DNA of 64,000 nucleotides from an uncultured Acidobacteriota bacterium. GTDB lineage: Bacteria; Acidobacteriota; G020349885; CAZDZC01. The translations under genes and the position numbers were made by a program. Of the stretch, positions 7,501 through 54,787 are shown one piece after another; position 1 is the first letter of the stretch; every line of letters starts with the position of its first letter. The notes beneath the pieces are model-generated. The model saw nothing but the letters and a program-made list of their open reading frames with translations, made no database searches and was not told the DNA's origin. Location of the stretch: positions 127,642 through 191,641 of the forward strand of contig CAZDZC010000003.1 of NCBI GenBank assembly GCA_964509835.1. Direction: 5' to 3'.

Positions 7501-7973
7501 TAAGCGAAAAAATTGCGAAGAATGGTTCAAGAATGGCTTTCATTACACTTGAAGATTTAAGGGGTTCGATAGAAGTGATAGCCTTTTCTGATGTTTATGA
7601 ATCTTGCAAAACAATAATCGCTGTTGATACCCCTGTTCTTGTCCGGGGGCAGGTGGATGTGGTGGAAAATGGTGTTGAGGCAAAGATCAGGGCTGAAGAG
7701 ATAAGGCTTCTTGACAATATCCGCGGGGAGGAAGCAAAATCAATACTCATTGTAACTTCCGCGGTTGGTCTTGATGGTGATGCCATGCACAAACTCAATA
7801 ATATTCTTGAGAAAAGCAAAGGTTCCAAGACTGTTAATATAAGACTTAACTATCCTAAGAAATATTCAGTTAAAATCGCTCTCAACCCCTACATAAAAGT
7901 GAATCCCAATCCTAAACTGATTGATAGAATTAAGGATGTTTTCGGTAAGAACTCCGTAAAATACGAGTTGTAG
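4494..7973 (+). CDS. dnaE: DNA polymerase III alpha subunit DnaE, interrupted by a single in-frame TAA at 7050-7052 (track ORFs 4494..7052 and 7083..7973 are in the same frame)
   Basis: The N-terminal PHP domain (FVHLHNHSDFSLLDG) and the polymerase core are present. The sequence continues in the same frame after the TAA (..GEKAIDSII*ARDKKGKIESLFDFCSKVDLR..). Comparing with DnaE from memory, that position should carry a Glu codon (GAA). The combined length of ~1148 aa is typical for DnaE. Confidence 0.9.
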
Positions 7974-39013: not shown

Positions 39014-42000
39014 ATGTTTAAAAAGTATTGGTTTTTAGTTGTTGCTTTCTTCTTTTTATCTCATCCGTTATATACTGCAGAGTGGATAGAGATGAAGATT
39101 TCACAACCAGATACACCCCCTGATATTCTTGTTACAGAGGATATTTCAGGTTTAACTGTGAGTGTTCAAACGCCGGGATTTTATACTGAGAATGTAGATG
39201 TAGACAGTGTGATTTACAAGAGTATTTCTCTCCCTGCCTCAGGAGTTAATGCTGTGACCGGCGCTCCTGCAATGCCTTTTAAAGGAGTATGGATAACGGT
39301 TCCGAACGGTGTTGAAATAAGTGTCGAACTGACCAGTGAAGATCCTTCTGTTATTCTGTCAGGCATTACTATTTACCCAAGGCAGGAACCCGCTCTTGAC
39401 TGCGGTGATTGCGAACCGGAATTCTTTATTGATCAAGAATACTATACTGCTGATGAATGGTTTCCGAAAGATATTGCAAGAATCTCAGTAGATGGGATTG
39501 TGAGAGGTCGAAGGATGGTTTTCATTGAAATATCACCGCTTCAATACAATCCTGTTACTAAAGAGTTAAGAGCTTACAGTGATTTAAGTGTCAATATGAA
39601 CTTCGAGGGTGATATTAATACTCAACTCGAAACAGCAGCTGAGAACAAACGAACTCCCTTCTTTGACAGTTTTATTAATTCATTTGCTGAGAACTACAGC
39701 TTTACTGACAATATTGAGAGTAATCCTATCGGAACTGAATACCTTATAATTGCATATGATAATTTTGTAAACGAATTAACACCACTTGCTGAATGGAAGG
39801 CATTAAAGGGATATACATCGGAAATAGTTCCTTTTTCTTCCATTGGTTCAACATATGCAGATCTTCTTACTTACCTTCAGAGCAGATATAATAGTGAGGA
39901 TCTTACTTATGTGCTACTTGTTGGTGATTATAACCTGGTACCGAGTTATCCTCACAGCGGATTTGTATCTGATCTGACTTTTTCGCTTCTTGATGGTTCA
40001 GATTATCTTCCTGATGTTGTTCTGGGAAGGATCAGTGTACAGACGGATGCTGAGTGCCAGACAGTTGTTAACAAGATATTGCAGTATGACAGGAATCCTG
40101 ATACAGGTAACTGGTATGAATCAGTACTCTTTGCATCCTACCTTCAGGGCGGGTGCGAGGCACAAAGATTTTTCTTCGAAACGGCAACACATGCCATGCA
40201 TTTTCTAGAAGGGAATACTTCTTTAAATACAAGAACAGCTATGACGAGTGATTCACTTTCTTGCAGTCCTTATTACTACCGCAGTGACAATCCTACTTGG
40301 TATCCCCACAGACCGGCAGGTTACAGTGGAATGACCCCTGTACCCGCAGCCGATGCCGCTCTTATTACAGGATCTGCTCAGGCAATATCTGATGTCTCTG
40401 CAGGATTCAATGCAGGAGTTGGACTGATTCAGCATCGCGATCACGGAATGGAAACAGGCTGGGGAGATCCGTATTTTACTAATTCAAATGTTGATGCTCT
40501 GACAAATGGTGTGAAGACACCGGTAGTTTTTTCCATCAACTGTCTGACTGGTAAGTTCAATTACACAGGGGGTGATTGTTTTACAGAAAGACTCCTTAAG
40601 AAGCAGAATGGAGGAGCTGTCGCTGCTATTGGTGCATCTGAGGTCAGTTATTCCGGTTTTAATGATCTTCTTACACATGGGATTTTTGATTGTTTCTGGG
40701 ACAACTATGATACAAATGATGGAGGAAATAATTACAACCACTCATGGAAACCAGCAGAAGCTTTGCTGTACGGGAAATTCTATATGCTTACCTGGGAAGG
40801 GGACAACTCCGATACTTTGTATCAGTACAGATTATTTCACTGGTTTGGTGATCCTGAACTGACTCTCAGACTGAATTCTCCAATTACTCCTGTAATCTCA
40901 CATGATGACCCTATTCCGGTAGGAGCCACTGACATTAATGTCTTCTGCAGTGAAAACGATGCTTTAGTGGCTGTAACTGAAGGGGGAGTGTTACTTGGAA
41001 GAAATTATGTTTCAGGTGGATCAACATCTGTAAACCTCAACCCTGTACCTAACATTCCTACCTCTTTGAATATAACAGTCACTGGACGAAGTATTGATCC
41101 CTACGAGGCGATTGTGGATGTCATTGTTCCAGATGGTGCTTGGCTGAGCCATGATTCGCATACTTTGGATGATAGTACAGGAAACAGTGATGGTATTATC
41201 AACCCAGGTGAGACAGCAACAGTTACTGTAACAGTAGAAAATGTTGGAGCCGATCCAGCAACTTCGGTTACAGCGATATTGTCGGAGAATTCTTCCTACT
41301 GTAGTGTAATTGACAACTCTGCAACCTTTCCTGATATACCGGTTTCTGCATTAGCACAATCTAATCCTGATCATTTTACTTTCTCTGTTGATCCTACCGC
41401 ACCCAATGGACATGTGATTGTATTTACACTGAACTGGATTGCTAATGGAACTGACACGGGATCAACAACATTTAATGTGAGTGTCTGTGAGCAATTGGTT
41501 ATCTCAAATATTCAATATACAAATGTTACAACTGATTCTGTAGATATAACATGGACCACAAATCATCCAGCTGATTCAACTTTAACATATGGTTCAGCAG
41601 TACCACCGACAATTATAGAATCTACTTCAGGATTGGTTACGAATCATTCGATTTCTGTGTCTGGATTAATAGATTGTTCTCTTTACTATTTCATGGTCAC
41701 ATCATCTTCTCAAGGGTGCTATACAGCAATCGATGATAATGGCGGAGCATATCATCACCTGGAAACATATTCTCTCAGCTCTGCTTTTAATGATGATGTA
41801 GAGTCGGGAAATATCGGCTGGACTGCAGACAGTCCCTGGGCTATTACAACCTCCAGCTCTCATTCATCTACACACAGCTGGACTGATTCACCATCCGGTA
41901 ATTACGGCAACAGCATTGATACTTCCCTTATGTCTCCTGTCATAGATCTTACAGGATACTCCTCTGCTGAAGTATCATTCTGGCACCGCTATTATACTGA

Positions 42001-45000
42001 AAGCTGCTGTGACAGAGCTTACTTTCAGATATCGGTGAACAACGGTGCATCCTGGACTACTCTTGGATCTTATGCCGGGATTAATACAACCTGGCATGAA
42101 GTGAATTTTGACCTGACACCTTATGTAGGGACATCCCAGTTCAGGATGCGGTTCCGTTTAGATACAGACAGCAGTATAGTTTATGACGGGTGGTATGTAG
42201 ATGATATTCAGATATCAACACCAACACCATGTCATGCCGGAGTTCTGACAATGGACAGCAGTATTTACTCATGTTCAGGAGATACAATCAGTTTTGAATT
42301 ATTGGATATGGATCTGAACCTTAATCCATCAGTAATAGAGAATGTTTCTATTGAGCTGAACAGTACAACAGAGAATGTTCCTGAGACAATAATATTAATT
42401 GAGGATGGGGTCAATTCAGCATATTTTTATGGGTCAGCTCAGACAACAGATTTATCGCCAATACCTGGAGATGGTATTATTTCAGTAATTGACCAGGATA
42501 CCATAACCACTGTTTATAATGATGCAAACAATGGCGGAGGGATTCCTGCCTCTGTTATAACCACCGCAACTACGAACTGTGTTCCTCCTGTAATATCGGG
42601 AGTATATGTATCTGGTTTGACCGGATATTCTGTAGTTATCAACTGGGTAACAGATATAGATTCAGACAGCGTAGTCAATTATGGCACTGTTTTCCCGCCA
42701 ACAGAACAGTCATCTTCAGCAAGCCTTGTCACTTCTCACTCTCATATGTTGACAGGCCTTCAACCCTGTACAATTTATTATTTCAGTATACAGTCTTCAG
42801 ATGAATATGGAAACACAGCTATCGATGATAATGGAGGTAGTTATTATCAGTTTGAAACTTTCAGCCAGACCATATACATTCAGGAAGACTTCGAAACAAC
42901 TCCTTCTGGATGGAGCCATGGAGGATACTACGATGAATGGGAATGGGGGACTCCTACGCTTGGTCCTCCGGGAGCACATTCCGGCAACAATGTATATGCA
43001 ACCGATCTTGATTCAAACTATAAGAAATCGGGTGGTACTGGCGATGTAGAATGCTATCTGACAACACCTTCAATTGATCTGACAGCAGCGTCGGGAAATG
43101 TCTCCCTGAGCTTCTGGCATTATTATGAAATATGGAATGATGCTGCACCGAACGGACTTGACGATGGTGCATGGCTGGAGATTTCAACAAATGGTGGTTC
43201 AACATGGTCTGTTTTGACTCCTGATGAAGGTTATAATAATACGCTTGATAGCAGTGCACCAAGGCCAAGCGGTTCCTGCTTTTCCGGAGACAGCGGAGGA
43301 TGGATCGAATCAACGACATCGCTGAATTCCTACATTGGTTACAATGTAAGTATCAGGTTCTGGTTCTTTTCTGATGATAGCCAGGGAACAGCTTTGCCTG
43401 GCTGGTACATAGATGATGTTACGGTTCTGGGAGATTCAGGGCCCTGCGGTCCATATGTATTGTATGAATCATGTACAATTAATGATTATCCGATCGGAAA
43501 CAACGACGGGGGAATAGATCCCGGTGAAAGTATTACTCTACCAGTGGCGTTTATAAATACAGGAGTTGAAGAAGCAGGAAATGTTACTGCTCTTCTTACA
43601 TCAACCACATCGGGAATAACAGTAATTACTGGAAGTACAGATTTCCCGGATATTCCTTCTTCAGGCTCTGGACAGTCAGTATCTCCACACTTCAGCTTCA
43701 GAGTTGACAGCTCTGTTCCCTGCGGTACAACTATTGAGTTCAGTCTTGTTATTGATTATACAGATCCTGGTGGAAATCCAGGGCAAAATACAGATTCATT
43801 TAGTTTAAGAATAGATGGGAGTTTGCTAGCGCCTGCAAATGTGGCTATATTTCAAGACACTAACCCATGGGGTAGAACATCAAATCAGGATATCTTAACT
43901 GCCAACAACATTCCTTTTACATTTTTTAATACTTCCGGCATCGCTTCAGTTGATCTATCACCTTTTGACAAAGTAGTGATCTCCTCTGCACAGAGTTTGA
44001 CATTCTACCAGACGATTGCAAATAATCTTTCCTTGTTTGAATCATGGATACAGAACGGTGGTGTTTTTGAAATGCATGGAGCATGTCAATCTTCTAGTAA
44101 CTGGAGTGGTTTGACGATGCCCGGAGACTGGACGAGTATTTACAGAACCTCAGACACTTTGGGAATCAGTGATATATTGCACCCAATAGTTACGGATCCG
44201 ACATTGATATCGGATAGTGAAATTGATAACTGGAGCGCAAGTACGCATGGGTATATTTCAGTTCATCCTGTTACTGCTGATCTCCTTATATTCGATGAGA
44301 CTTATATACCAAATCAGCCAGTTACTATGGAGTGGAATCTGGGAAGCGGAGCAGTAATTGCCTCAATGCAAACACTGGAGTTCGGATATGATAATCAGTA
44401 TTCTGATATTCTAGAGAATATACTTCTCTATATGCCCGTCGGCACAGCAGGATGTGAACCCTTTAGTGAAATACATTTGGATGGTACTGACTACTCTTGC
44501 GAAGATGTGATCGAAGTTAGAGTTATAGATGATGATCTGAATACAGACCCGGGAACTGCTGAAACTGTTGATGTGGAGATGACATCTTCTACTGAAACTG
44601 TACCAGAGATCCTTACACTGACGGAAAACGGTCCAGATACAGGAATTTTCATGGGAACAATAGCTGTTTCGCTGACAGACAGTCCCGGTGTTCTTCAGAT
44701 ATCGCAGGGGGATACTGTTTACGGTCTTTACCACGATGATGATGCATTCGGAACAGGTCCTCAGGATTTTACTGCAGAAGCATTTATCCAGAGTGACTGT
44801 ACCCCTCCTGTAATTTCGAATGTTGCTGTTACAAATATTACTGGAAGTACAGCCTTAGTGACATGGACCACAGATGAACCAGCTGACTCTTTTGTAGAAT
44901 ATGGTGCAGATCCCATGCTGGGTTCAATGACTTCACTTAGTGGATTTGTTACAAACCACAGTATTTTACTGTCAGGTTTGACTCCATGCAGTGGCTATGT

Positions 45001-46531
45001 TTTTAAAGTTGGCTCTACTGATGGCGCAGGTAATGTCTCTATTGATGACAATGCAGGAATTTTGTGGTCTTTTGAGACTTACGGAAGTACAGTTTACCTT
45101 GATACTGACTTTGAGAGCGGTGCATCCGGCTGGACCCATACAGGTGTGTATGACCAATGGCAGCTGGGATATCCTTCATACGGTCCATCTGGGGCACACA
45201 GCGGAAGTAATGTTTATGCAATAAACCTGACTGGAAACTATACGAAGAACAACGGTTCAACAAACGGAAGCAACTGGCTTATAACCCCATCATTAGATCT
45301 GACAAGTGCTACAGGTGCGGAACTTTCATTCTGGCACTGGTATTATATATATACCGACAACCTTACAAACGGAACTGATGATGGCATCTGGCTGGAAATT
45401 TCAACTAATGGCGGTGCCTCCTGGCAGGTGCTTACACCGGACAATGGATACAATAATACCCTTGATGATGAAGCACCGTATCCTTACGGCCCCTGCTGGG
45501 CAGGTCTCAGTACAGTCTGGGAGGAAGTGACGGTTGACCTTTCAGCATATTCTGGAAACACTGTTAACTTAAGGTTCAGGTTTTTCGAAGATGATAATTT
45601 CGGAACTGCACGTGCAGGATGGTATATAGACGATGTTCTTGTTAATGTTGATGCACCGTGCACGCAAAGCTGTTCACCTGTTATTGCATCAATAGATGTG
45701 ATCAATCCTGATCCTGAAGTATGTCTGGGCACTGAACAGACTCTCTATGGCAGCGGAAAGGGAGAAGGAGCTCTAACTTATGAATGGGATCTTGATTATG
45801 ACGGGTTCACATTTAATGTTGATGCAGTTGGTGAAGTAATAAGCCATATGTTCCCTGTTGCGAATATTGATTTTGCCCTGAGAGTGACGGATTCCTGCAG
45901 TGACCCGGGACCGCAGCAGGATATTGACATTGTCAGTCTGAACCTTTATGGTCAAATATCAGCTTCATTCAACTGGAGTCCAACAGACTGCTCAGTTCAG
46001 TTTACAGATACATCTACAGGGGGAGCAGCTCCGTTCATTTATCAATGGGACTTCGGAGATGGCAGCGGGATTTCTACAGCATCGAACCCTCAGTATACCT
46101 ACTCCCTGTCAGGTACCTACACAGTTGAGCTCACCCTTACTTCAGCTGATGGTTGTCAGGACTCGCATTCAGAGTCTATTACCTGTACAACTGGTGTCAG
46201 GATACCTGAAATTATTACAGTTGAGAAATCTGTAACAGGAATAACCTTCAGCATTGATAATCAGAGAACAAACTCATTTCACAATCTTTACAGAGGTGAA
46301 CTGGGAAACTGGTACTCCCACAATAATAAAGTATCAACTGCTGAGTGTCCAGGTAGTCCTGCAGGCTTACTATCAGATGATACTTCAGTAACGAAAGATA
46401 GTGATAATTACTATTACATAATAAGTTATTCTGACGGTTTCTGTGAAACAGGATTCGGATACAACAGTGATATGGTTGACAGGTCAACGGTGTTTCTGCC
46501 TTCTGAGATGTGCACAGAGCTATGTCCTTAA
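39014..46531 (+). CDS. Giant secreted peptidase C25 (gingipain-family cysteine protease) with FN3-like, MAM/jelly-roll-like and PKD modules, and a C-terminal Cys-containing tail
   Basis: A signal peptide is followed by a C25 propeptide and catalytic domain (YLIIAYDNFVNELTPLAEWK..VLLVGDYNLVP). The catalytic His is in IQHRDHG and the Cys in FSINCLTG. Three FN3-like units (..ITWTT..TYG..) alternate with MAM-like units. A PKD unit (WDFGDGSG) lies near the C-terminus. Confidence 0.9.
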   Translation: MFKKYWFLVVAFFFLSHPLYTAEWIEMKISQPDTPPDILVTEDISGLTVSVQTPGFYTENVDVDSVIYKSISLPASGVNAVTGAPAMPFKGVWITVPNGVEISVELTSEDPSVILSGITIYPRQEPALDCGDCEPEFFIDQEYYTADEWFPKDIARISVDGIVRGRRMVFIEISPLQYNPVTKELRAYSDLSVNMNFEGDINTQLETAAENKRTPFFDSFINSFAENYSFTDNIESNPIGTEYLIIAYDNFVNELTPLAEWKALKGYTSEIVPFSSIGSTYADLLTYLQSRYNSEDLTYVLLVGDYNLVPSYPHSGFVSDLTFSLLDGSDYLPDVVLGRISVQTDAECQTVVNKILQYDRNPDTGNWYESVLFASYLQGGCEAQRFFFETATHAMHFLEGNTSLNTRTAMTSDSLSCSPYYYRSDNPTWYPHRPAGYSGMTPVPAADAALITGSAQAISDVSAGFNAGVGLIQHRDHGMETGWGDPYFTNSNVDALTNGVKTPVVFSINCLTGKFNYTGGDCFTERLLKKQNGGAVAAIGASEVSYSGFNDLLTHGIFDCFWDNYDTNDGGNNYNHSWKPAEALLYGKFYMLTWEGDNSDTLYQYRLFHWFGDPELTLRLNSPITPVISHDDPIPVGATDINVFCSENDALVAVTEGGVLLGRNYVSGGSTSVNLNPVPNIPTSLNITVTGRSIDPYEAIVDVIVPDGAWLSHDSHTLDDSTGNSDGIINPGETATVTVTVENVGADPATSVTAILSENSSYCSVIDNSATFPDIPVSALAQSNPDHFTFSVDPTAPNGHVIVFTLNWIANGTDTGSTTFNVSVCEQLVISNIQYTNVTTDSVDITWTTNHPADSTLTYGSAVPPTIIESTSGLVTNHSISVSGLIDCSLYYFMVTSSSQGCYTAIDDNGGAYHHLETYSLSSAFNDDVESGNIGWTADSPWAITTSSSHSSTHSWTDSPSGNYGNSIDTSLMSPVIDLTGYSSAEVSFWHRYYTESCCDRAYFQISVNNGASWTTLGSYAGINTTWHEVNFDLTPYVGTSQFRMRFRLDTDSSIVYDGWYVDDIQISTPTPCHAGVLTMDSSIYSCSGDTISFELLDMDLNLNPSVIENVSIELNSTTENVPETIILIEDGVNSAYFYGSAQTTDLSPIPGDGIISVIDQDTITTVYNDANNGGGIPASVITTATTNCVPPVISGVYVSGLTGYSVVINWVTDIDSDSVVNYGTVFPPTEQSSSASLVTSHSHMLTGLQPCTIYYFSIQSSDEYGNTAIDDNGGSYYQFETFSQTIYIQEDFETTPSGWSHGGYYDEWEWGTPTLGPPGAHSGNNVYATDLDSNYKKSGGTGDVECYLTTPSIDLTAASGNVSLSFWHYYEIWNDAAPNGLDDGAWLEISTNGGSTWSVLTPDEGYNNTLDSSAPRPSGSCFSGDSGGWIESTTSLNSYIGYNVSIRFWFFSDDSQGTALPGWYIDDVTVLGDSGPCGPYVLYESCTINDYPIGNNDGGIDPGESITLPVAFINTGVEEAGNVTALLTSTTSGITVITGSTDFPDIPSSGSGQSVSPHFSFRVDSSVPCGTTIEFSLVIDYTDPGGNPGQNTDSFSLRIDGSLLAPANVAIFQDTNPWGRTSNQDILTANNIPFTFFNTSGIASVDLSPFDKVVISSAQSLTFYQTIANNLSLFESWIQNGGVFEMHGACQSSSNWSGLTMPGDWTSIYRTSDTLGISDILHPIVTDPTLISDSEIDNWSASTHGYISVHPVTADLLIFDETYIPNQPVTMEWNLGSGAVIASMQTLEFGYDNQYSDILENILLYMPVGTAGCEPFSEIHLDGTDYSCEDVIEVRVIDDDLNTDPGTAETVDVEMTSSTETVPEILTLTENGPDTGIFMGTIAVSLTDSPGVLQISQGDTVYGLYHDDDAFGTGPQDFTAEAFIQSDCTPPVISNVAVTNITGSTALVTWTTDEPADSFVEYGADPMLGSMTSLSGFVTNHSILLSGLTPCSGYVFKVGSTDGAGNVSIDDNAGILWSFETYGSTVYLDTDFESGASGWTHTGVYDQWQLGYPSYGPSGAHSGSNVYAINLTGNYTKNNGSTNGSNWLITPSLDLTSATGAELSFWHWYYIYTDNLTNGTDDGIWLEISTNGGASWQVLTPDNGYNNTLDDEAPYPYGPCWAGLSTVWEEVTVDLSAYSGNTVNLRFRFFEDDNFGTARAGWYIDDVLVNVDAPCTQSCSPVIASIDVINPDPEVCLGTEQTLYGSGKGEGALTYEWDLDYDGFTFNVDAVGEVISHMFPVANIDFALRVTDSCSDPGPQQDIDIVSLNLYGQISASFNWSPTDCSVQFTDTSTGGAAPFIYQWDFGDGSGISTASNPQYTYSLSGTYTVELTLTSADGCQDSHSESITCTTGVRIPEIITVEKSVTGITFSIDNQRTNSFHNLYRGELGNWYSHNNKVSTAECPGSPAGLLSDDTSVTKDSDNYYYIISYSDGFCETGFGYNSDMVDRSTVFLPSEMCTELCP

Positions 46532-46596: not shown

Positions 46597-49500
46597 ATGC
46601 TTAAGAACAGAGTAACAGACTTCGTGATAATAGTTTTACTGGCAATTATTTTGTCAGTATGTTTCATTGGTAATAAGGTATTAACCGCTGCGGATAAGGA
46701 ATTTGAAAGGATTTATGAACTTAGGGATCCTGGTCTGAATGCTGACAGTTATGAAGAAGATGATAATTGTACGGGGGTTTTATCAAACATTATCGAAGAT
46801 AGCGAAACCCAATCACATGATTTCTCAGATGACGGCGAAGACTGGATTGCCTTTAACGGATGTGCCGGGACCACATATACAATTTCAACTTCCAATTTAG
46901 GCCTGTTTGCTGATACTCTGATAGAGCTTTATGACAGGGACTGTTCCATATTACTCACATGGGATGATAACAGTGGTGGTGGTTTAGCATCCCTGCTTTC
47001 ATGGACCGTTACTGCATCAGGTCTGTATCATATAAAAGTTCTTCAAGCGGATGCGACTTTTGGAGCAGAAAGGGAATACGATCTGAACCTTTCAGGAAGC
47101 ACTGCAAGCTGTCTTTCTTGGATAAAAGCTTATGGAGGAACTGCTGATGATGCCGGAAGTTCAGTTTGTTCGACATATGATGGAGGTTATATTGTTTCAG
47201 GTAAGACATATAGCTTCGGTGCTTTAGCAAATGATATGTGGTTCCTAAAACTGGATGCCTATGGATCAATCGTATGGGAAGAAAGGATAGATGGAAACTC
47301 AGAGGATATTCCAGAGGAAATAATCCCGACTTCTGATGGTGGGTATATAGCAATGGGTTATACATTCTCACAAGGTGTCGGAGGGTACGATATATGGATT
47401 TTAAAACTGAACAGCTCCGGTAGTATTATTTGGCAGAAAACTATCGGATCATCAAGTGACGATGTAGGGTATGACATGGAGAACACTGCTGATGGAGGCT
47501 TTATTATTTCCGGTTATACCTTGAGTTCAGGCAGTTCAGATGCTTTGATCATCAAATTAAGTTCAGACGGTTTGATTGAATGGGAGATAAGAGCCGGAGG
47601 GACAGGTTATGATAATGGTGCATCAGTTGTACAGACATCTGACGGTGGATATTTTGTGACGGGACAGACCTCTTCATATGGTGCTGGTGGTTATGACTGT
47701 TGGCTGCTGAAGCTGAATTCCTCCGGTAATATTTTGTGGTGTAAGACATATGGAGGTTCTTTTACAGACAGGGGAAATCATGTAATAGAAACTTCTGATG
47801 GCGGTATCCTCATTACAGGATATACCAGTTCATATGGGGCAGGTAATGGTGATTTCTGGGTAATTAAAACGGACTCATCAGGTTCAGTGGATTGGCAGAA
47901 AACATATGGGGGAGCACTGAATGACATTGCATCAGGTTGCATAGAAGTTTCAGATGGATTTATAATCTCGGGAATGTTAACAGGTCTGGGAAACGGCAAC
48001 CAGGATTCCTGGTTCATAAAACTGGATTTAACAGGATCTGTGGTGTGGCAAAAAGCATACGGCCTTGACCTATATGAAACAATTGGATTTATAGCACCAA
48101 CACCTGATAAAGGAATAGTTGCTGCTGGAATCTGCAATTCAATTGGTTCTGGTGGAAATGATCTTTGGATAATGAAGTTTGATGAAACAGGGAGTCTCAG
48201 CAGTGATTGCGGTTTTGAAACAATCACTTCCACCGCAGGTTCAGATTCAACCGCATCAGTTAGTAATCCATCTGTTTCAGCAGTTTCAACATCCCTGCTT
48301 GTACTTGCCTCAACTGCCACTGTTCAACCATCAACAGCTCTCATTACAAATCCATGTCCTGACAGTGACGGAGATGGGTTATCGGACGATCTGGACAACT
48401 GTCCCTTTGACTTCAACCCTGTCCAGGCTGACTCTGACACTGATGATGTTGGAGATATTTGTGATGTATGTCCAGATGATCCCGATCCCGGTCAGGAGGA
48501 TCAGGATACAGATGGAGTTGGAGATACCTGTGATAACTGTCCTGCCGTGAGTAATCCTGGCCAGGAGGATACAGATGGGGACGGAATTGGAGATGTCTGT
48601 GATCTGGACGCCGATGGTGATGGGATTGATGATGATATTGATAACTGTCCATCGGTTCCGAACCCTGGACAGAATGACACAGATGGGGATACCGTTGGCG
48701 ATGAATGCGATGCCTGTCCCGGAGGAGATGACAGAATAGACTCCGATATAGATGGTGTTCCGGATGTATGCGACAATTGTGAATTCACTATTAACCCTTT
48801 GCAGGAGGATGTTGATGCCGACTACATGGGAGATGTCTGCGATAACTGCCCGACAACTTATAATCCCGGGCAGGAGGATGCTGACCTGGATGGTGTTGGA
48901 GATGCTTGTGATTTGTGCGCAGGATTTGACGATGCTTTAGATGTTGATATGGATTTAATTCCTGACGGATGCGACAATTGCCCGTCGGTTGCAAATCCAT
49001 CTCAGCTTGACAGTGACGGAGACGGTTATGGCGATTCCTGCGATGTCTGTGTCGGAGGGGATGATAACCTGGATGCCGATGGTGACACGGTTCCTGATGA
49101 ATGTGATAACTGCCCTGATATTCCAAACCCTGACCAGGAGGACGAAAATGCAAACGGCGTTGGTGATGTTTGTGATCTTGATGACTGTATAGGAGCCATA
49201 CCGATAGATGTTACACCATTTTCAGACAGTTATAATGTAACATCAGCAACTCATGCTGTTACGGATCCTGTTTCAGTATGTCCCTCCTCATGTCCTTCTG
49301 ATGACCACAGCGTATGGTTCCGGTATGAAGCCACCACCAGTGTTTCGGTCATTGTAGATTCTGTGGGAAGCAATTATGACACCATCATGACCGTTTACAG
49401 TACTGACCCGGTTCTTGGCTGTGATTCACTGACTTATCACAGCTGTAATGATGACTATAGCGGAACCCAGTCACAGGTGATGTTCACAACATGTCCCGGG

Positions 49501-52500
49501 GATGTTTACTATGTTATGGTGACTTCCTATGATTGCTCAGGAGGAACTCTGGTCCTCAATGCCAGCACTGCCGCACTTAAGGACAAAGACGGTGACGGTG
49601 TGGGTGATATCTGTGACAACTGCATGAACACTCCCAATTCCGGTCAGGAAGATGTGGATGGCGACGGTGTCGGTGACGCTTGCGACAACTGTGTATCAGA
49701 TCCTAATGCAGACCAGTCTGATGTGGATAGTGATGGTATTGGCGATGTCTGCGATACATGCCCTGATGATCCCGATAACGATATAGACGGTGACGGAGTT
49801 TGCGGTGACATAGACAACTGCCCGTTTGATGCAAATACAAACCAGAGTGATGTGGATACTGACACTATCGGCGATGTATGTGACAATTGCCAGGATGATG
49901 CTAATACTACCCAGGATGATGGCGATTCGGACAATGTTGGAGATGTATGTGACAATTGTCACTCCGATGCCAATACAGACCAGTCGGATATTGACGGTGA
50001 CGGGATCGGCGATGTATGTGATATATGTCCTGGTGATCCATGGAATGATATCGATGGTGACGGGGTCTGTGGTGATATTGATAACTGTCCAACCACTGCC
50101 AATCCTCTTCAGGAGGATGCCGACAGTGACGGTGTTGGGGATATATGTGATAACTGCGTAAATACATTAAATCCGACACAGGATGATACAGACTCTGATG
50201 GTGCTGGAGATGCATGTGACAATTGTGTGAACATTCCTAATACCGATCAGGAGGATATCGACAGCGATACTGTTGGAGATGTTTGCGACAATTGTCCTAA
50301 TGATCCGAATACTGATCAGGCTGATGCTGACGGAGACGGCACTGGCGATGTATGTGATATCTGCCCGTTGGATCCCGATGATGACATTGACGGCGACATG
50401 CTCTGCGCTGATGTGGATCATTGCCCGGAGCTTTATAATCCGATCGTTGACTACTCATATGATGATACGGTCACATACAGTTTCATTGATGCAACATCGG
50501 GAGATCTTGTTCTGGATATCGGAGATGATGCCCAGGCACTAATCCCGATCGGATTTGATTTTGTTTTGTACGATGGAGTTTACAGCCAGCTGAATGTCAG
50601 TAGTAATGGATACATTACTTTGTCATCTGATGGACTTGAGCCTTACAATATATGTATTCCTGACATATCAACTCCTGATCTGTTGATAACCCCTTTCTGG
50701 GATGATCTTAATATTACAGGAGATGCTGCTATCTACAGTATTCTCGAAGGAACTGCCCCCTACAGAAGGTTTACGGTTGAGTGGTATCATCTCAGACATT
50801 ATCCTGGAATAGGAAGCATTACATTCGAAGTTACTTTCTATGAATCTAATAACGAAATAAGAATGCAGTATCAGGATACTGACTTCGGAGATGTGACCTT
50901 TGATCTTGGAGCATCGGCAACATCAGGGATTGAGGGACCGGGGGGAACAGTCGGAACGGACTACTCATGTGACAGCCCTGTTCTAACAGATATGCTTGCT
51001 GTTCACTATACTCCAATAGTATCCAATGATGATACGGACATTGATACGGTCGGAGATCTGTGCGATAACTGCCCGATTGATGCCAATACAGATCAGTCTG
51101 ATGTTGATTCAGATATCTTCGGTGATGTCTGTGATAACTGTCCTTTAGATAATAATCCGGGTCAGGAGGATGTGGATAGTGACGGTTTAGGTGATATCTG
51201 TGACAACTGCATGGATATAAGTAATCCAACTCAACAGGATTATGACGGAGACGGACTCGGTGATGACTGTGACAACTGTCCTGATTATGCAAATGCCGGT
51301 CAGGAGGATGTTGACGGAGACGGTATCGGTGATGTTTGTGACAACTGTCCCGATGAACCCAACTCTGACCAGTCTGATGTGGATGCAGACGGTATAGGAG
51401 ATGTCTGTGACCTGTGTCCTGGTACTCCATATCCGGGCGTTGGTTATAACTATGATGAAACAGCGGCTTTTTCTTACATTGACACTTCTTTGGCAGGTAT
51501 AATCGCTATAAGCAGCGGAGATGATACTTCGACGGATATTTCCATAGGATTTGACTTCGAGTTCTACGGCAATATCTATAATTCGATAAAGGTCAGCAGT
51601 AATGGATATGCCACATTCGGAAGCGATGGGGATGACTACTCCAATGACTGCCTGCCCTACAGTCTTGATCCCAATGATCTTATTGCTGTGCACTGGGATG
51701 ACATGTCTGTTCCTCTGACAGGTATGGTCAGTTATTTTCTGGAAGGCACAGCGCCGGACAGACAGCTTACGATAGAATGGTATCATGTTGAACGGCTTGG
51801 AAGTTCAGGGGACATGACTTTTGAGGTCACATTATACGAAACTACAAATGAAATAAAAATGCAGTTTCTTGATGTCGTTGTCGATGTACCTTCCTACAGT
51901 TACGGAGAGGGAGCAACAACAGGACTGGAGAACATAGATGGGACCGAAGATGTGTCCTTTTCGTGCAATGTACCGTTCCTGTCAAACGGGCTTGCCATTA
52001 TGTTCTCACCCAGGGTCCCCAACAGTGACTTCGATGGAGACACTATCGGAGATATCTGCGACAACTGTCCCAGAACACCAAACACTGATCAGTCTGATGT
52101 GGATGGCGACGGAGTAGGTGATGTCTGTGACAACTGTATTGATACTCCGAATGAGGATCAGGAGGATGTAGACAGTGACGGTGTGGGTGATGATTGCGAT
52201 AACTGCCACGATAACAGTAATTCCGATCAGAGTGATATCGACACCGATAATGTTGGAGATGTCTGTGATAACTGTATAGATACACCAAACGAATTTCAGG
52301 AGGATGCTGATACCGACGGCGCTGGTGATGTTTGTGATAACTGTGTTGACGGGTTCAATACCGGTCAGGAGGATGGTGATGTTGACGGTGTGGGAGATAT
52401 TTGCGATAACTGTACAGTAGATGCAAACAGTGGCCAGGAGGATGCCGATTCTGACATAGTAGGTGATGTATGTGACAACTGCCCGTTGGATGCCAATCCT

Positions 52501-53652
52501 GACCAGTCCGATGTTGATACTGATACATACGGTGATGTCTGTGACAACTGCCCATTGGACACGAACACCGACCAGTCTGATGTTGATACCGATACAGTGG
52601 GAGATGTCTGCGATAACTGTCCAGATGATGCGAACACACTTCAAGAGGATGTTGATACAGATGGTGTGGGTGATGTTTGCGATAACTGTCCGGCAGATTT
52701 CAACAGTGATCAGAGTGATGTTGACGGTGACACTGTGGGAGATGTCTGTGACAACTGTCCAGATGATGCAAATACACTTCAGGAGGATGTGGACGGTGAC
52801 GGGATTGGAGATGTATGTGATGTCTGCCCAGATGATCCCGATAATGATATTGACGGTGACGGAGTCTGCGGGGATGTGGACAACTGTCCGGCAACATCAA
52901 ACAGCGGTCAGGAGGATGCTGATACAGACGGTGTTGGGGATGTATGTGACAACTGTATTGATGATGCAAATACCCTTCAGGAGGATGTTGACGGTGACGG
53001 TGTCGGAGATGTCTGTGACAACTGTCCTCTAATAATTAATATTATCCAGCAGGATGAAGATCTCGACCTAGTAGGGGACTTCTGTGATAACTGTCCCTCA
53101 GTTGCCAATCCTTCTCAAGTCGATGTTGACGGTGACGGTGTCGGTGATGTATGCGATGTCTGTCCCAATGATTTTAATAACGATATAGATAGCGACGGAT
53201 TCTGTGCTGATGTTGACAATTGTCCTCTCATCTCCAATCCCAAGCAGAAGGATTTCGATGGAGACGGCATTGGTGACGACTGTGATGATGATGTTGATGG
53301 CGATCTTGTGAACAATGAAATTGACTGTGAACCCTGGAACCCTGCAGTATGGGCACCTCCCGGTCCGGCTTCTGACCTGATGCTTTCAGGCGGTGCCAAC
53401 ACCGTTATGGAGTGGACAACTGCAGGTATAACCGGAGGATCAGCTTTTACATTTGATCTTATCTGCAGTGAGGACCCGTCCGATTTCAGTGCCTGTAAGT
53501 GCATTGAATCAGACGACAACGATACAACAGCATCAGATCCTGCAATACCAGCTAACTGTTTCTTCTATCTTGTAAGGACCAGGAATGGCTGTGGCGAAGA
53601 ACTGGGAACAGACTCCAACCTTGTTTCAAGGAGTGCATCATCTTGCCCGTAA
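46597..53652 (+). CDS. Giant extracellular calcium-binding protein: signal anchor, SBBP-type beta-propeller repeats, >40 thrombospondin type-3 repeats, two internal ~190-aa paralogous domains, shared C-terminal tail
   Basis: The N-terminus is hydrophobic. Eight ~50-aa repeats follow (YGG..D.G..V..T.DGGY...G.T.S.G.G..D.W..KL...G...W) at ~47.1-48.2 kb. Long arrays of DxDxDGxGDxCDNCP (TSP3) repeats follow. Two related domains sit at ~50.44-51.03 and ~51.43-52.02 kb. Confidence 0.9.
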   Translation: MLKNRVTDFVIIVLLAIILSVCFIGNKVLTAADKEFERIYELRDPGLNADSYEEDDNCTGVLSNIIEDSETQSHDFSDDGEDWIAFNGCAGTTYTISTSNLGLFADTLIELYDRDCSILLTWDDNSGGGLASLLSWTVTASGLYHIKVLQADATFGAEREYDLNLSGSTASCLSWIKAYGGTADDAGSSVCSTYDGGYIVSGKTYSFGALANDMWFLKLDAYGSIVWEERIDGNSEDIPEEIIPTSDGGYIAMGYTFSQGVGGYDIWILKLNSSGSIIWQKTIGSSSDDVGYDMENTADGGFIISGYTLSSGSSDALIIKLSSDGLIEWEIRAGGTGYDNGASVVQTSDGGYFVTGQTSSYGAGGYDCWLLKLNSSGNILWCKTYGGSFTDRGNHVIETSDGGILITGYTSSYGAGNGDFWVIKTDSSGSVDWQKTYGGALNDIASGCIEVSDGFIISGMLTGLGNGNQDSWFIKLDLTGSVVWQKAYGLDLYETIGFIAPTPDKGIVAAGICNSIGSGGNDLWIMKFDETGSLSSDCGFETITSTAGSDSTASVSNPSVSAVSTSLLVLASTATVQPSTALITNPCPDSDGDGLSDDLDNCPFDFNPVQADSDTDDVGDICDVCPDDPDPGQEDQDTDGVGDTCDNCPAVSNPGQEDTDGDGIGDVCDLDADGDGIDDDIDNCPSVPNPGQNDTDGDTVGDECDACPGGDDRIDSDIDGVPDVCDNCEFTINPLQEDVDADYMGDVCDNCPTTYNPGQEDADLDGVGDACDLCAGFDDALDVDMDLIPDGCDNCPSVANPSQLDSDGDGYGDSCDVCVGGDDNLDADGDTVPDECDNCPDIPNPDQEDENANGVGDVCDLDDCIGAIPIDVTPFSDSYNVTSATHAVTDPVSVCPSSCPSDDHSVWFRYEATTSVSVIVDSVGSNYDTIMTVYSTDPVLGCDSLTYHSCNDDYSGTQSQVMFTTCPGDVYYVMVTSYDCSGGTLVLNASTAALKDKDGDGVGDICDNCMNTPNSGQEDVDGDGVGDACDNCVSDPNADQSDVDSDGIGDVCDTCPDDPDNDIDGDGVCGDIDNCPFDANTNQSDVDTDTIGDVCDNCQDDANTTQDDGDSDNVGDVCDNCHSDANTDQSDIDGDGIGDVCDICPGDPWNDIDGDGVCGDIDNCPTTANPLQEDADSDGVGDICDNCVNTLNPTQDDTDSDGAGDACDNCVNIPNTDQEDIDSDTVGDVCDNCPNDPNTDQADADGDGTGDVCDICPLDPDDDIDGDMLCADVDHCPELYNPIVDYSYDDTVTYSFIDATSGDLVLDIGDDAQALIPIGFDFVLYDGVYSQLNVSSNGYITLSSDGLEPYNICIPDISTPDLLITPFWDDLNITGDAAIYSILEGTAPYRRFTVEWYHLRHYPGIGSITFEVTFYESNNEIRMQYQDTDFGDVTFDLGASATSGIEGPGGTVGTDYSCDSPVLTDMLAVHYTPIVSNDDTDIDTVGDLCDNCPIDANTDQSDVDSDIFGDVCDNCPLDNNPGQEDVDSDGLGDICDNCMDISNPTQQDYDGDGLGDDCDNCPDYANAGQEDVDGDGIGDVCDNCPDEPNSDQSDVDADGIGDVCDLCPGTPYPGVGYNYDETAAFSYIDTSLAGIIAISSGDDTSTDISIGFDFEFYGNIYNSIKVSSNGYATFGSDGDDYSNDCLPYSLDPNDLIAVHWDDMSVPLTGMVSYFLEGTAPDRQLTIEWYHVERLGSSGDMTFEVTLYETTNEIKMQFLDVVVDVPSYSYGEGATTGLENIDGTEDVSFSCNVPFLSNGLAIMFSPRVPNSDFDGDTIGDICDNCPRTPNTDQSDVDGDGVGDVCDNCIDTPNEDQEDVDSDGVGDDCDNCHDNSNSDQSDIDTDNVGDVCDNCIDTPNEFQEDADTDGAGDVCDNCVDGFNTGQEDGDVDGVGDICDNCTVDANSGQEDADSDIVGDVCDNCPLDANPDQSDVDTDTYGDVCDNCPLDTNTDQSDVDTDTVGDVCDNCPDDANTLQEDVDTDGVGDVCDNCPADFNSDQSDVDGDTVGDVCDNCPDDANTLQEDVDGDGIGDVCDVCPDDPDNDIDGDGVCGDVDNCPATSNSGQEDADTDGVGDVCDNCIDDANTLQEDVDGDGVGDVCDNCPLIINIIQQDEDLDLVGDFCDNCPSVANPSQVDVDGDGVGDVCDVCPNDFNNDIDSDGFCADVDNCPLISNPKQKDFDGDGIGDDCDDDVDGDLVNNEIDCEPWNPAVWAPPGPASDLMLSGGANTVMEWTTAGITGGSAFTFDLICSEDPSDFSACKCIESDDNDTTASDPAIPANCFFYLVRTRNGCGEELGTDSNLVSRSASSCP
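48340..53330 (+). repeat. Coding tandem-repeat arrays of thrombospondin type-3 Ca-binding motifs (4 blocks: ~48.35-49.19, 49.59-50.44, 51.04-51.42, 52.03-53.30 kb)
   Basis: The ~36-45-nt-periodic repeat gatgtctgtgacaactg... recurs throughout. It generates numerous spurious antisense His/Pro-rich ORFs. Confidence 0.85.
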
Positions 53653-53684: not shown

Positions 53685-54329
53685 TTACAGGAGGAACAAT
53701 GTTGAGCAGCGCTGAATGTTTAATTGGCAGAGGTGGTACATTTTTATTCCGGCGATTACACTTATTCCTTTGAACATTTCAGCCATTTGTTCCGGCGTGG
53801 GTGGATTATAACTTTTGTCGAACATGGAATGAACGGGCCTGAAGAAATGGAACCTTCCTCCGCTCACTTTTGCCAGAAGCTTACAGAGCTTCTCTCCCGG
53901 AAGAGTTCCCTCTTCACTTCTGAAGCAGGGATTAAGCACAAAGAGAAGGGTCTTATGTCTCCTGTATTGAGATGCTGTCTGAATTGCATCCTTATAGGCA
54001 GGCTCATCAAATACATCTTTAAACTTATGGGTCAGAGGTTCGGGGTAGAAATCACTTATGGCAAGAACAATATTTCTGGAACCGGGTTTCCTGAACCTTT
54101 CCAGGCGACACATTTCCAGTCCTTTCCTCAGTCCGTCAGCGATCGGTGTTTCCCCGTCTACAGCAAGTTCTGAAAGATGTCGCAATATAACCCTGAAATT
54201 ATGAGTGGGGTTATTAATAATCTGAGCCTGCTTCCCCTGAATGGAGACAAGTCCGACCCTGTCATTGCTCCGTTTGAAATAACCTGTCAGGTTCTTCAGA
54301 AGTTCAGTGAACACCTTCACAAAAGGCAT
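53685..54329 (-). CDS. von Willebrand factor A (VWA) domain protein, ChlD-like C-terminal part; ORF as listed lacks its MIDAS motif, which lies upstream in the same frame (open to 54812 with no start codon) - likely frameshift-separated from the ChlI-like ORF
   Basis: The same-frame translation upstream of the first ATG reads ..LTLVLAVDVSRSTM, a DxSxS MIDAS motif. No ATG/GTG/TTG occurs between 54329 and the frame's upstream stop at 54813-54815. Confidence 0.65.
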   Translation of the reverse strand: MPFVKVFTELLKNLTGYFKRSNDRVGLVSIQGKQAQIINNPTHNFRVILRHLSELAVDGETPIADGLRKGLEMCRLERFRKPGSRNIVLAISDFYPEPLTHKFKDVFDEPAYKDAIQTASQYRRHKTLLFVLNPCFRSEEGTLPGEKLCKLLAKVSGGRFHFFRPVHSMFDKSYNPPTPEQMAEMFKGISVIAGIKMYHLCQLNIQRCSTLFLL

Positions 54330-54787
54330 GGTGGACCGGCTGACATCAACAGCAAGAACAAGAGTAAGGCTCTGAGGTTCAGACTTCTCCCAGCCCAGAA
54401 TATCCTCTCTGCCTATCCTGAACTTTCTGTCAGTGAAGCTGTACTTTCCATTGAAAAGAGCTTTATTGAGAGTAGGAAGAAAGGCTGGATTATTAAGGGA
54501 TTCATTATATTTAACAGCCCTGATATTCCTGCCTGTAACAGATGAAGAGGAATATGTTTTCTTAACTTTGTTCCTGCTCCTTCTTCCCGAACTCTTTCTG
54601 AGCTTTTTGAAAATATTGTGGAGAAAATTCCTGGCATTAAAAACAGACTGGAGTCCTCTGTAAACAGGAAGTTTGTCCTCTGTTTCTCCTGGCGAACTGT
54701 CGGGAAGGGTCTTTCCCGGTTTTCTCTTACTTTCAGGATTTGATATTACAGATTTAATACTGTTCTTAATTGACTTTGTCAGTCTTC

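What the first reader, a model, noticed from the sequence alone, without database searches (positions are those of the whole stretch)
46229..46531. Shared cysteine-containing C-terminal module on both giant surface proteins (second copy at ~53350-53652), not matching known sorting signals
The last ~70-100 residues of the two otherwise unrelated giant proteins align as follows:
- ..ECPGSPAGLLSDDTSVTKDSDNYYYIISYSDGFCETGFGYNSDMVDRS..CTELCP*
- ..ACKCIESDDNDTTASDPAIPANCFFYLVRTRNGCGEELGTDSNLVSRSASSCP*

The core N[YC][YF][YF][IY][IL]....[GN].C[EG].......S..V.RS and a terminal C-P are conserved. This does not look like a T9SS CTD, LPXTG, PEP-CTERM or GlyGly-CTERM signal. A short conserved tail shared by adjacent giant secreted proteins suggests a dedicated sorting, anchoring or processing signal.
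Basis: seen in the sequence. Interest (0 to 1): 0.6.

Follow-up and report, generated by a model that had tools for sequence, protein, structure and literature searches.

The report
Cysteine-stapled Fn3 end-domain on surface proteins
Both giant secreted proteins end in an uncatalogued, disulfide-braced fibronectin-III-type domain of about 110 residues that almost always finishes a protein with Cys-Pro, and it sits where related proteins in other bacteria carry known surface-sorting tags, so it may be a new surface-targeting module, though this is unproven.

Summary
The two tails read exactly as quoted. Pairwise similarity is weak, but each tail belongs to a clear sub-family, and the two sub-families are homologous over about 92 columns (hhalign 94%, E 1e-7).

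It is not a short linear signal. It is a complete domain of about 110 residues with a fibronectin type III (Fn3) fold (AlphaFold pLDDT 92; the 50 best Foldseek PDB matches listed are nearly all Fn3; the profile hits titin Fn3 at E 6e-12).

No Pfam or NCBIfam model covers the domain. There is no T9SS-CTD match, no transmembrane helix and no basic tail.

In 122 loci from other genomes and metagenomes:
- 87% of 132 copies sit at the extreme C-terminus, and 99 end in "CP".
- The four cysteines are 96-100% conserved.
- The Pro is kept only when the domain is terminal.

The cargo is very diverse (47 Pfam families in 53 proteins). It includes M36 peptidases, MtsC-like TSP3 proteins and choice-of-anchor proteins, which elsewhere end in MYXO-CTERM, GlyGly-CTERM or T9SS CTDs.

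That placement makes a surface-targeting or anchoring role plausible (about 0.45). No partner enzyme, cleavage or localisation evidence was found.

The parts
39014..46531 (+). Gene A: 2505-aa secreted giant protein. Domains: C25 propeptide and Peptidase_C25 with its Ig-like C-terminal domain, fn3/PurAcPhosph_N-like domains, three InhA-like MAM / choice-of-anchor J domains, PKD, and finally the A-type CP-terminal Fn3 domain.
   Evidence: ORF list. Translation. Pfam: Peptidase_C25 5e-65, Propeptide_C25 1.4e-17, InhA-like_MAM 8.6e-28, PKD_4 3.4e-15. NCBIfam choice_anch_J 89.5 bits against a cut-off of 30. Identical to library protein P0001.
39014..39079 (+). Probable Sec signal peptide of protein A (MFKKYWFLVVAFFFLSHPLYTA).
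   Evidence: Read directly from the translation: a KK n-region, a hydrophobic core and an A-x-A-like end. No predictor was run, so this is an inference.
46196..46528 (+). A-type CP-terminal Fn3-like domain of protein A (111 aa, 4 Cys, ends ...CTELCP).
   Evidence: The A-type HMM built without window sequences scores it at 110 bits, E 4e-36. Six homologues all end in C-x3-C-P at the stop. hhalign to the B-type gives 94%, E 1e-7. The AF2 model for this sub-family is poor (pLDDT 50), so the fold is inferred by homology.
46597..53652 (+). Gene B: 2351-aa secreted giant protein. Domains: N-terminal beta-propeller-like region, at least 29 thrombospondin type 3 repeats, two NIDO-like inserts, and finally the B-type CP-terminal Fn3 domain. 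It starts 65 nt after gene A, with a GGGGAG Shine-Dalgarno-like motif upstream.
   Evidence: ORF list. Translation. Pfam TSP_3 5e-122 with 29 stretches, NIDO 0.0024. NCBIfam MtsC-like 730 bits. Intergenic sequence.
46597..46689 (+). Probable signal peptide or N-terminal anchor of protein B (MLKNRVTDFVIIVLLAIILSVCFIGNKVLTA).
   Evidence: Read from the translation. No predictor was run, so this is an inference.
53323..53649 (+). B-type CP-terminal Fn3 domain of protein B (109 aa). The family-invariant Cys are at domain positions 2, 60, 90 and 108, and the chain ends in ...SSCP.
   Evidence: The B-type HMM built without window sequences scores it at 131 bits, E 1e-42, end to end. AF2 gives pLDDT 92.2, pTM 0.84 and 7 strands. 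Nearly all of the 50 best Foldseek PDB matches listed are Fn3 domains. The profile hits titin Fn3 at E 6e-12.
53563..53631 (+). It corresponds to Fn3 strand F (tyrosine corner), the FG loop with its invariant Cys, and strand G.
   Evidence: DSSP strands at residues 81-88 and 91-93 of the model. Column conservation: Y84 100%, R87 99%, N90 94%, C92 100%, G97 94%, S100 88%, R105 84% in 116 unique sequences.

Best explanation
Each giant protein ends in a complete domain of about 110 residues with a fibronectin type III fold. The domain belongs to an uncatalogued family that I call the CP-terminal Fn3. It has two divergent sub-families: the A-type on the C25 peptidase and the B-type on the TSP3 protein.

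The proteins carry what look like Sec signal peptides. The domain would fold outside the cytoplasm, where its four near-invariant cysteines can form two disulfides. The chain stops one residue after the last cysteine, nearly always with Pro.

I think its most likely job is that of a folded C-terminal targeting or retention domain. It would keep very diverse secreted enzymes and adhesins on or at the cell surface of diderm bacteria. In logic it resembles a T9SS C-terminal domain or a non-covalent anchor domain, not a motif-helix-basic sortase signal.

What is shown:
- Homology of the two tails.
- The Fn3 fold, for the B-type.
- The cysteine pattern.
- The extreme C-terminal bias.
- The cargo diversity.
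- The occupation of the slot that known sorting signals occupy on the same cargo families.

What is inferred:
- Disulfide formation.
- Surface targeting or anchoring.
- Whether the domain is recognised by a machine or binds a surface polymer.
- The role of the terminal Pro. One possibility is protection of the free end against carboxypeptidases.
For: - Homology: hhalign of A-type against B-type gives 94.2%, E 1.1e-7, with or without the window sequences, and the cross-HMM scores are significant.
- Fold: AF2 pLDDT 92.2, pTM 0.84, seven strands. The 50 best Foldseek PDB matches listed are nearly all Fn3 domains, with TM around 0.6. hmmsearch against PDB hits titin Fn3 at 6e-12 and 3lpw at 9e-6.
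- Family features: the four Cys are 96-100% conserved in 116 unique sequences.
- Position: 115 of 132 copies (87%) lie within 3 residues of the stop, and 99 end in CP. The search patterns lay inside the domain, so this is not an ascertainment artefact. All 7 A-type copies are terminal and end in CP.
- Terminal Pro: internal copies keep the last Cys but not the Pro (2 of 15 have CP).
- Several per genome and in neighbouring genes: up to 3 loci per MAG with a pattern that matches only about one fifth of the B-type members (my hand count, no tool run). Nine loci hold two tail-bearing ORFs. P0002 and P0008 each sit on a contig of 128,196 bp, probably the same one.
- Cargo diversity: 47 Pfam families in 53 proteins, including Kelch, FG-GAP, TSP3, LamG, S8, M36 and sortilin/BNR.
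- Secretion: 54 of 64 complete ORFs have a signal-peptide-like N-terminus by a crude test.
- Slot equivalence: three tail-bearing M36 peptidases match the 'myxosortase-dependent' model (1562, 1554 and 1430 bits; cut-off 1500; profile positions up to about 1186 of 1604). They also match the 'rhombosortase-dependent' and 'T9SS-dependent' M36 models up to the point where those models' C-terminal parts begin. Seven proteins are MtsC-like (a MYXO-CTERM family) and one is choice-of-anchor B. Protein A carries choice-of-anchor J domains.
Against: - No direct evidence of localisation, cleavage or a partner exists.
- No recurrent neighbour gene appears in 122 loci. The best is a generic histidine-kinase cluster in 17 loci.
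- No C25 peptidase lies in any flank.
- No sortase-like gene lies in the part of the window scanned, about 26.8-63.2 kb.
- About 8% of copies are internal or N-terminal (P0012 at 26-125 of 784; P0042; L001; L010). The domain therefore functions without a free C-terminus in some proteins.
- Fn3 domains are common spacer and binding modules, so a purely structural role cannot be excluded.
- The A-type fold is not independently confirmed (pLDDT 50).
- Other tail-bearing proteins in the window's own genome could not be looked for.
Confidence: 0.45

Rival explanations
1. It is an ordinary structural or ligand-binding Fn3 module with no sorting role. It would act as a disulfide-stapled, protease-resistant 'end cap' or adhesive tip on extracellular proteins. 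The terminal Cys ties down the last strand, and the terminal Pro blocks carboxypeptidases.
For: - The fold and the profile similarity to classical Fn3.
- The last Cys is retained in internal copies, so it is structural, whereas the Pro is terminal-specific.
- No partner gene was found.
- Some copies are N-terminal or internal.
- Many invariant polar residues (D47, R50, D74, R87, N90, R105) could form a ligand site.
Against: - Generic Fn3 domains are typically internal and tandem. Here 87% of copies sit exactly at the C-terminus as a single copy.
- The cargo is too diverse for a substrate-specific binding module.
- The domain replaces known sorting signals on the M36, MtsC-like and choice-of-anchor cargo families.
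Confidence: 0.35
2. It is a linear C-terminal sorting or processing signal. A dedicated sortase-, exosortase- or rhombosortase-like enzyme would recognise the conserved core or the terminal Cys-Pro, then cleave or attach the protein.
For: - The C-terminus is extremely conserved: CP in 99 of 115 terminal copies and in both sub-families.
- The tail occupies the same slot as MYXO-CTERM and GlyGly-CTERM on M36 peptidases.
Against: - The conserved 'core' is the F strand, FG loop and G strand of a folded domain.
- There is no transmembrane helix (maximum 19-residue Kyte-Doolittle mean 0.72-0.76) and no basic cluster.
- No sortase-like gene lies in the part of the window scanned or in the flanks of the 122 loci.
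- No NCBIfam sorting-signal model matches.
Confidence: 0.08
3. It is a highly divergent T9SS C-terminal domain, exported and processed by a type IX-like system. The neighbouring C25 peptidase (protein A) would play a PorU-like role.
For: - It shares with T9SS CTDs the size, the beta-sandwich nature, the extreme C-terminal position and the diverse cargo, including a gingipain-family C25 peptidase and M36 and M6-like proteases.
- Protein A has weak PorU similarity (54.6 bits) through its C25 domain.
Against: - Neither tail and none of the 26 members hits the T9SS CTD models at E<=1.
- The PorU score is far below the cut-off of 420.
- Most genomes found are Acidobacteriota. To my knowledge this phylum lacks T9SS.
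- No C25 peptidase lies in any of the 122 flanks.
- The best structural matches are Fn3, not T9SS CTDs.
Confidence: 0.05
4. The similarity of the two tails is chance or compositional.
For: BLASTP finds nothing. The pairwise Smith-Waterman p-value is only about 0.005-0.01.
Against: Profile-profile comparison gives E 1.1e-7 without the window sequences, and the cross-HMM hits are significant. Both sub-families also share four Cys, the terminal CP, the YxxxR(G/S) C strand and the YYLV F strand.
Confidence: 0.02

Closest known systems
Fibronectin type III domain superfamily (Pfam fn3 PF00041 and relatives; titin, neogenin and bacterial Fn3-like modules)
   Same: - Seven-strand beta-sandwich.
- Conserved Trp in strand B, Tyr in strand C and the tyrosine-corner 'YYLV' in strand F.
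- The profile hits titin and ephrin-receptor Fn3 domains by sequence, and Fn3 dominates the structural matches.
   Different: - Four near-invariant cysteines.
- Many invariant polar residues.
- A single copy at the extreme C-terminus, ending in Cys-Pro.
- Not detected by Pfam fn3: 1 of 26 members at E 0.019, below the gathering score.
T9SS C-terminal domains (type A, TIGR04183/PF18962; type B, TIGR04131)
   Same: - A folded beta-sandwich of about 80-110 residues at the very end of many unrelated secreted proteins in one genome.
- Overlapping cargo: C25 gingipain-family and M36 peptidases.
   Different: - No sequence-model match.
- Cysteine-stapled.
- Found mainly in Acidobacteriota MAGs.
- No evidence of cleavage or of a T9SS.
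Tripartite C-terminal sorting signals: MYXO-CTERM/myxosortase, GlyGly-CTERM/rhombosortase, PEP-CTERM/exosortase, LPXTG/sortase
   Same: It occupies the same position on the same cargo families: M36 metallopeptidases, MtsC-like TSP3 proteins and choice-of-anchor proteins.
   Different: - No signature motif, transmembrane helix or basic tail.
- About 110 folded residues instead of about 30.
- No cognate sorting-enzyme gene seen.
Non-covalent surface-anchoring domains (for example SLH; recalled from general knowledge, not tested)
   Same: Folded terminal modules that hold diverse exoproteins on the envelope without cleavage. This is compatible with the invariant polar patch and the minority of N-terminal copies.
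   Different: A different fold and no sequence relation. Binding to an envelope polymer is pure conjecture here.

Membership tests
Fibronectin type III superfamily | Seven-strand Ig-like beta-sandwich with Fn3 topology | tested here: met
   For tail B: AF2 pLDDT 92.2, pTM 0.84, 7 strands. The 50 best Foldseek PDB matches listed are nearly all Fn3 domains, with probability 1.00 and TM 0.58-0.64. For tail A this holds only by homology, because its own model is poor.
Fibronectin type III superfamily | Sequence-profile similarity to recognised Fn3 domains | tested here: met
   The B-type profile against PDB sequences hits titin at 6e-12 and 6e-11, 3lpw at 9e-6 and EphB6 at 9.5e-4. The Pfam fn3 model itself detects only 1 of 26 members at E 0.019, so this is superfamily-level membership, not membership of PF00041.
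T9SS C-terminal domain (type A or type B) | Match to the curated CTD models (TIGR04183/PF18962, TIGR04131/PF13585) | tested here: not met
   No such hit at E<=1 for either tail or for any of the 26 B-type members in Pfam or NCBIfam.
T9SS C-terminal domain (type A or type B) | The genome encodes the T9SS core (PorK/L/M/N, Sov, PorV, PorU) | not testable with these tools
   Only the 64-kb window and flanks of up to 10 kb were available. Nothing of the kind was seen in them.
Tripartite sorting signals (LPXTG, PEP-CTERM, GlyGly-CTERM, MYXO-CTERM) | Signature motif followed by a hydrophobic transmembrane helix and a basic cluster at the extreme C-terminus | tested here: not met
   The maximum 19-residue Kyte-Doolittle mean in the last 120 residues is 0.72 (A) and 0.76 (B). 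There are 0-1 K/R in the last 10 residues. No NCBIfam sorting-signal model matches.
Tripartite sorting signals (LPXTG, PEP-CTERM, GlyGly-CTERM, MYXO-CTERM) | A cognate sorting enzyme encoded in the genome | not testable with these tools
   None lies in the part of the window scanned, about 26.8-63.2 kb, and no recurrent neighbour appears in 122 loci. Such enzymes are usually encoded far from their substrates, and whole genomes could not be scanned.
Cargo class 'choice-of-anchor' / sorting-signal-dependent exoproteins (NCBIfam) | The cargo domain belongs to families that NCBIfam defines by alternative C-terminal anchors | tested here: met
   Protein A scores 89.5 bits for choice_anch_J against a cut-off of 30. 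Tail-bearing relatives score 1562 and 1554 bits for myxo_dep_M36 against a cut-off of 1500. They also match rhom_dep_M36, T9SSA_dep_M36, choice_anch_B (2.3e-159) and MtsC-like models. The meaning of 'choice-of-anchor' is from my knowledge of the NCBIfam descriptions.
CP-terminal Fn3 family (defined here) | An Fn3 of about 110 residues with four conserved Cys, a YxxxR(S/G) C strand, a (F/Y)Y(Y)L(V/I) F strand followed by x3-4-C-(G/E), S-x-G-x-x-R, and a chain end of Cys-Pro | tested here: met
   Tail A scores 110 bits against the A-type HMM. Tail B scores 131 bits against the B-type HMM, end to end. Both HMMs were built without the window sequences.

The most novel reading that the evidence does not exclude
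The CP-terminal Fn3 domain may be the recognition module of a not-yet-described surface-sorting or outer-membrane export pathway. That pathway would operate in Acidobacteriota, Gemmatimonadota and the window's unidentified 41%-GC lineage. It would be a fourth solution, beside myxosortase, rhombosortase and T9SS, for displaying the same M36, TSP3 and choice-of-anchor cargo. The free ...Cys-Pro-COOH end would be part of what is recognised.
Probability: 0.25. Interest if true: 0.8.

Novelty: new variant of a known kind. Interest (0 to 1): 0.55.

Why it matters
- How Acidobacteriota and many uncultured diderm lineages display large enzymes and adhesins on their surface is poorly known. A domain that marks such proteins would give a handle for predicting their surface proteomes and for finding the machinery involved.
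- Even if the domain is only structural, it is a widespread family that neither Pfam nor NCBIfam models. At least 141 relatives turned up in JGI metagenomes with two narrow patterns.
- Its absence from the libraries already misleads annotation. Tail-bearing M36 peptidases pass the NCBIfam cut-off for 'myxosortase-dependent' although they have no MYXO-CTERM.
- A family HMM would be easy to build from the alignments made here.

Tried and rejected
- **BLASTP of the two tails:** no alignment.
- **Word-index homologue searches with each tail:** nothing.
- **PDB search with the two-tail profile:** nothing.
- **Other copies in the window, all six frames:** none.
- **False positives of the first profile:** FG-GAP/VCBS-like tandem repeats and MopE-like repeats. 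I discarded them because they are multi-copy, internal and lack the cysteine pattern.
- **The search for related loci:** The A-type search of metagenome contigs found no relative.
- **Source and taxonomy of the window:** The look-up of encoding contigs had no record for protein A, protein B or P0002. Cluster look-up showed only unnamed NCBI singletons, so the window's taxon stays unknown.
- **AF2 of tail A with 7 sequences:** too poor to use.
- **Neighbourhood clustering of 122 loci:** no recurrent partner.
- **C25 peptidase as a conserved partner:** rejected.
- **Disulfide pairing from co-loss of cysteines:** uninformative, because 108 of 116 sequences have all four.
- **Literature searches for a described equivalent:** nothing relevant.
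Full report
**What is there.** The window carries two adjacent, co-directional giant genes.
- ORF A (39014..46531, 2505 aa) is a gingipain-family protein. It has a C25 propeptide, Peptidase_C25 (E 5e-65), fn3-like domains, three InhA-like MAM / choice-of-anchor J domains and a PKD domain.
- ORF B (46597..53652, 2351 aa) has a propeller-like N-terminal region and at least 29 thrombospondin type 3 repeats.
- Both begin with signal-peptide-like sequences, read by eye.

**Is the similarity real?** As a pair it is marginal.
- BLASTP gives no alignment at E<=100.
- The Smith-Waterman score is 45, against 26-28 +/- 5 for shuffles.
- Word-index searches with either tail found nothing. No third copy exists in the window.

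An exhaustive HMMER search of 1.84 billion representatives with the two-tail profile returned 48 proteins. After reading them they fall into three groups.
- Six 'A-type' proteins resemble tail A. Protein A itself also came back as P0001, identical to the window protein.
- Twenty-six 'B-type' proteins resemble tail B.
- The rest are false positives: FG-GAP/VCBS-like and MopE-like tandem repeats.

Alignments A2 (A-type) and A3 (B-type) show two sharply defined sub-families. With the window sequences left out:
- The two profiles align at 94.2% probability, E 1.1e-7, over 92 columns.
- The A-type HMM scores tail A at 110 bits and tail B at 19.4 bits (E 5.6e-8).
- The B-type HMM scores tail B at 131 bits and tail A at 10.3 bits (E 3.4e-5).

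So the shared module is genuine. It is about 110 residues long (46196-46528 and 53323-53649), and the two genes carry different sub-families of it.

**What it is.** AlphaFold2 on tail B with the 26-sequence alignment gives a confident all-beta model: pLDDT 92.2, pTM 0.84, seven strands.
- The 50 best Foldseek PDB matches listed are nearly all fibronectin type III domains (neogenin, titin, Robo3, a Clostridium thermocellum Fn3-like protein; TM about 0.6).
- The B-type profile also hits titin Fn3 domains by sequence alone (E 6e-12; 3lpw 9e-6).
G-x-C-E ... S-x-x-V-x-R-S) is the F strand with its tyrosine corner, the FG loop and the G strand.
- The A-type model was poor (pLDDT 50 with 7 sequences), so its fold rests on the homology.

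At family level the domain is uncatalogued.
- Neither tail nor any of the 26 B-type members reaches a Pfam or NCBIfam model. The best hits are stray Ig/Fn3-like ones: SusE at 0.003, and fn3 at 0.019 in one member.
- The 68 extra homologues from the word-index search are all 'hypothetical protein', with no Pfam domain over the tail.

**Family properties.**
- A genome scan with one narrow peptide pattern (F[FY]YLVR[AT][RKQ]N) gave 42 loci. Nearly all are Acidobacteriota MAGs (Polarisedimenticolia, Terriglobia), with one Gemmatimonadota. Up to three loci came from one MAG.
- A metagenome scan gave 141 relatives, of which 80 were kept.
- Both taxonomic pictures are biased by the patterns used. The window's own lineage (41% GC, an NCBI contig of 203 kb) could not be named.
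- Across the 122 loci there are 132 domain copies. Of these, 115 (87%) lie within three residues of the stop codon, 99 end in exactly Cys-Pro, and 10 are internal. The search patterns lay inside the domain, so this positional bias is not built in.
- The four cysteines are 96-100% conserved in 116 unique sequences, as are W33, Y46-D47, R50, D74, P78, Y84, R87, N90, G97 and R105.
- Internal copies keep the last Cys but replace the Pro (CP in 2 of 15). The Cys is therefore structural, and the Pro is tied to being the chain end.
- All A-type copies are terminal and end in C-x3-C-P.
- Nine loci carry two tail-bearing ORFs, mostly side by side as in the window. Two A-type proteins, P0002 and P0008, each sit on a contig of 128,196 bp, probably the same one.

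**Bearing on function.**
- The carriers look secreted: 54 of 64 complete ORFs pass a crude signal-peptide test.
- They are very diverse: 47 Pfam families in 53 proteins, including Kelch and FG-GAP propellers, TSP3, LamG, S8 and M36 peptidases and sortilin/BNR.
- The most telling result concerns three tail-bearing M36 peptidases. They match the NCBIfam model 'myxosortase-dependent M36 metallopeptidase' at 1562, 1554 and 1430 bits (cut-off 1500) over profile positions up to about 1186 of 1604. They also match the 'rhombosortase-dependent' and 'T9SS-dependent' M36 models.
- Seven carriers are MtsC-like (a MYXO-CTERM family) and one is a choice-of-anchor B protein. Protein A itself carries choice-of-anchor J domains.
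- In other words, the CP-terminal Fn3 sits in the slot where the same cargo families carry three different known sorting signals in other phyla.

Against a dedicated system:
- No sortase-like gene lies in the part of the window scanned, about 26.8-63.2 kb.
- No gene family recurs beside the 122 loci beyond generic kinases.
- No C25 peptidase lies in any flank.
- A minority of copies are N-terminal or internal.
- The tails have no hydrophobic helix or basic end, which excludes the LPXTG, PEP-CTERM, GlyGly-CTERM and MYXO-CTERM type of signal.

**Verdict.**
- The 'short tail' is a whole Fn3-superfamily domain of a family not yet modelled. It is characterised by two probable disulfides and a Cys-Pro chain end.
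- My best reading (0.45) is a folded C-terminal targeting or retention domain for surface display.
- The main rival (0.35) is a structural or ligand-binding end cap with no sorting role.
- A linear sortase-type signal (0.08), a divergent T9SS CTD (0.05) and chance (0.02) are unlikely.
- The disulfide pairing (a guess from Fn3 topology: Cys2-Cys90 and Cys60-Cys108 in B-type numbering), the role of the Pro and any machinery are inferences. None of these was tested.
- No paper describing this domain was found.

Noticed in passing
window 4494-7973 (stop at 7050-7052): dnaE (DNA polymerase III alpha) is interrupted by a single in-frame TAA ('...GEKAIDSII*ARDKKGKIESLFDF'). The two ORFs are in the same frame and together cover the whole NCBIfam profile. 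This is a nonsense mutation or an assembly or sequencing error in an essential gene.
   Followed up: partly
window ~8000-37500: A large lipid-type biosynthetic cluster. It holds two beta-ketoacyl-ACP synthases, a CrtD-like desaturase, an HpnN-like RND transporter, at least four B12-binding radical SAM enzymes (one near the 'lipid biosynthesis B12/rSAM' ladderane-type model), an ACP, a GT2, a lipid A-type acyltransferase, an ABC-2 exporter and a BtrH_N/DUF4872 protein. Its product is unknown.
   Followed up: no
proteins P0004, P0011, P0016-19, P0027, P0029, P0031, P0034, P0035, P0037, P0041, P0043: The two-tail profile also pulled tandem FG-GAP/VCBS-like repeats ('DFDGDGKxDxAVFRPxxGxWYLLxSxxGFxxxQFGxxxDxPVPxDYDGDG'). 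The 'WYLL..S..GF...FG' stretch mimics the Fn3 F-G region. I treated these as convergent false positives and did not test them further.
   Followed up: partly
L048:587-4633, L099:6380-10321 (Acidobacteriota-type metagenome and genome loci): M36 peptidases ending in the CP-terminal Fn3 score above the NCBIfam cut-off for 'myxosortase-dependent M36 family metallopeptidase' (1562 and 1554 bits against 1500), although they have no MYXO-CTERM. Automatic annotation would probably name them wrongly.
   Followed up: yes
P0012, P0042, L001:4555-7515, L055, L118: A minority architecture has the B-type Fn3 right after the signal peptide, followed by a cysteine-rich module ('C..G.CCGG.C.DL..D...CG.CG..C'). 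This shows the domain can work away from the C-terminus.
   Followed up: partly
window 53685-55912 (minus strand): A VWA-domain protein and a MoxR-type AAA+ ATPase lie immediately downstream of gene B, convergent with it. No link to the giant proteins was examined.
   Followed up: no
window 53323-53649 (tail B): Tail B has three extra cysteines (domain positions 48, 58 and 79) beyond the four family-invariant ones. It also replaces the family's 'YDLLRS' with 'FDLICS'. The resulting odd cysteine count is unexplained.
   Followed up: no
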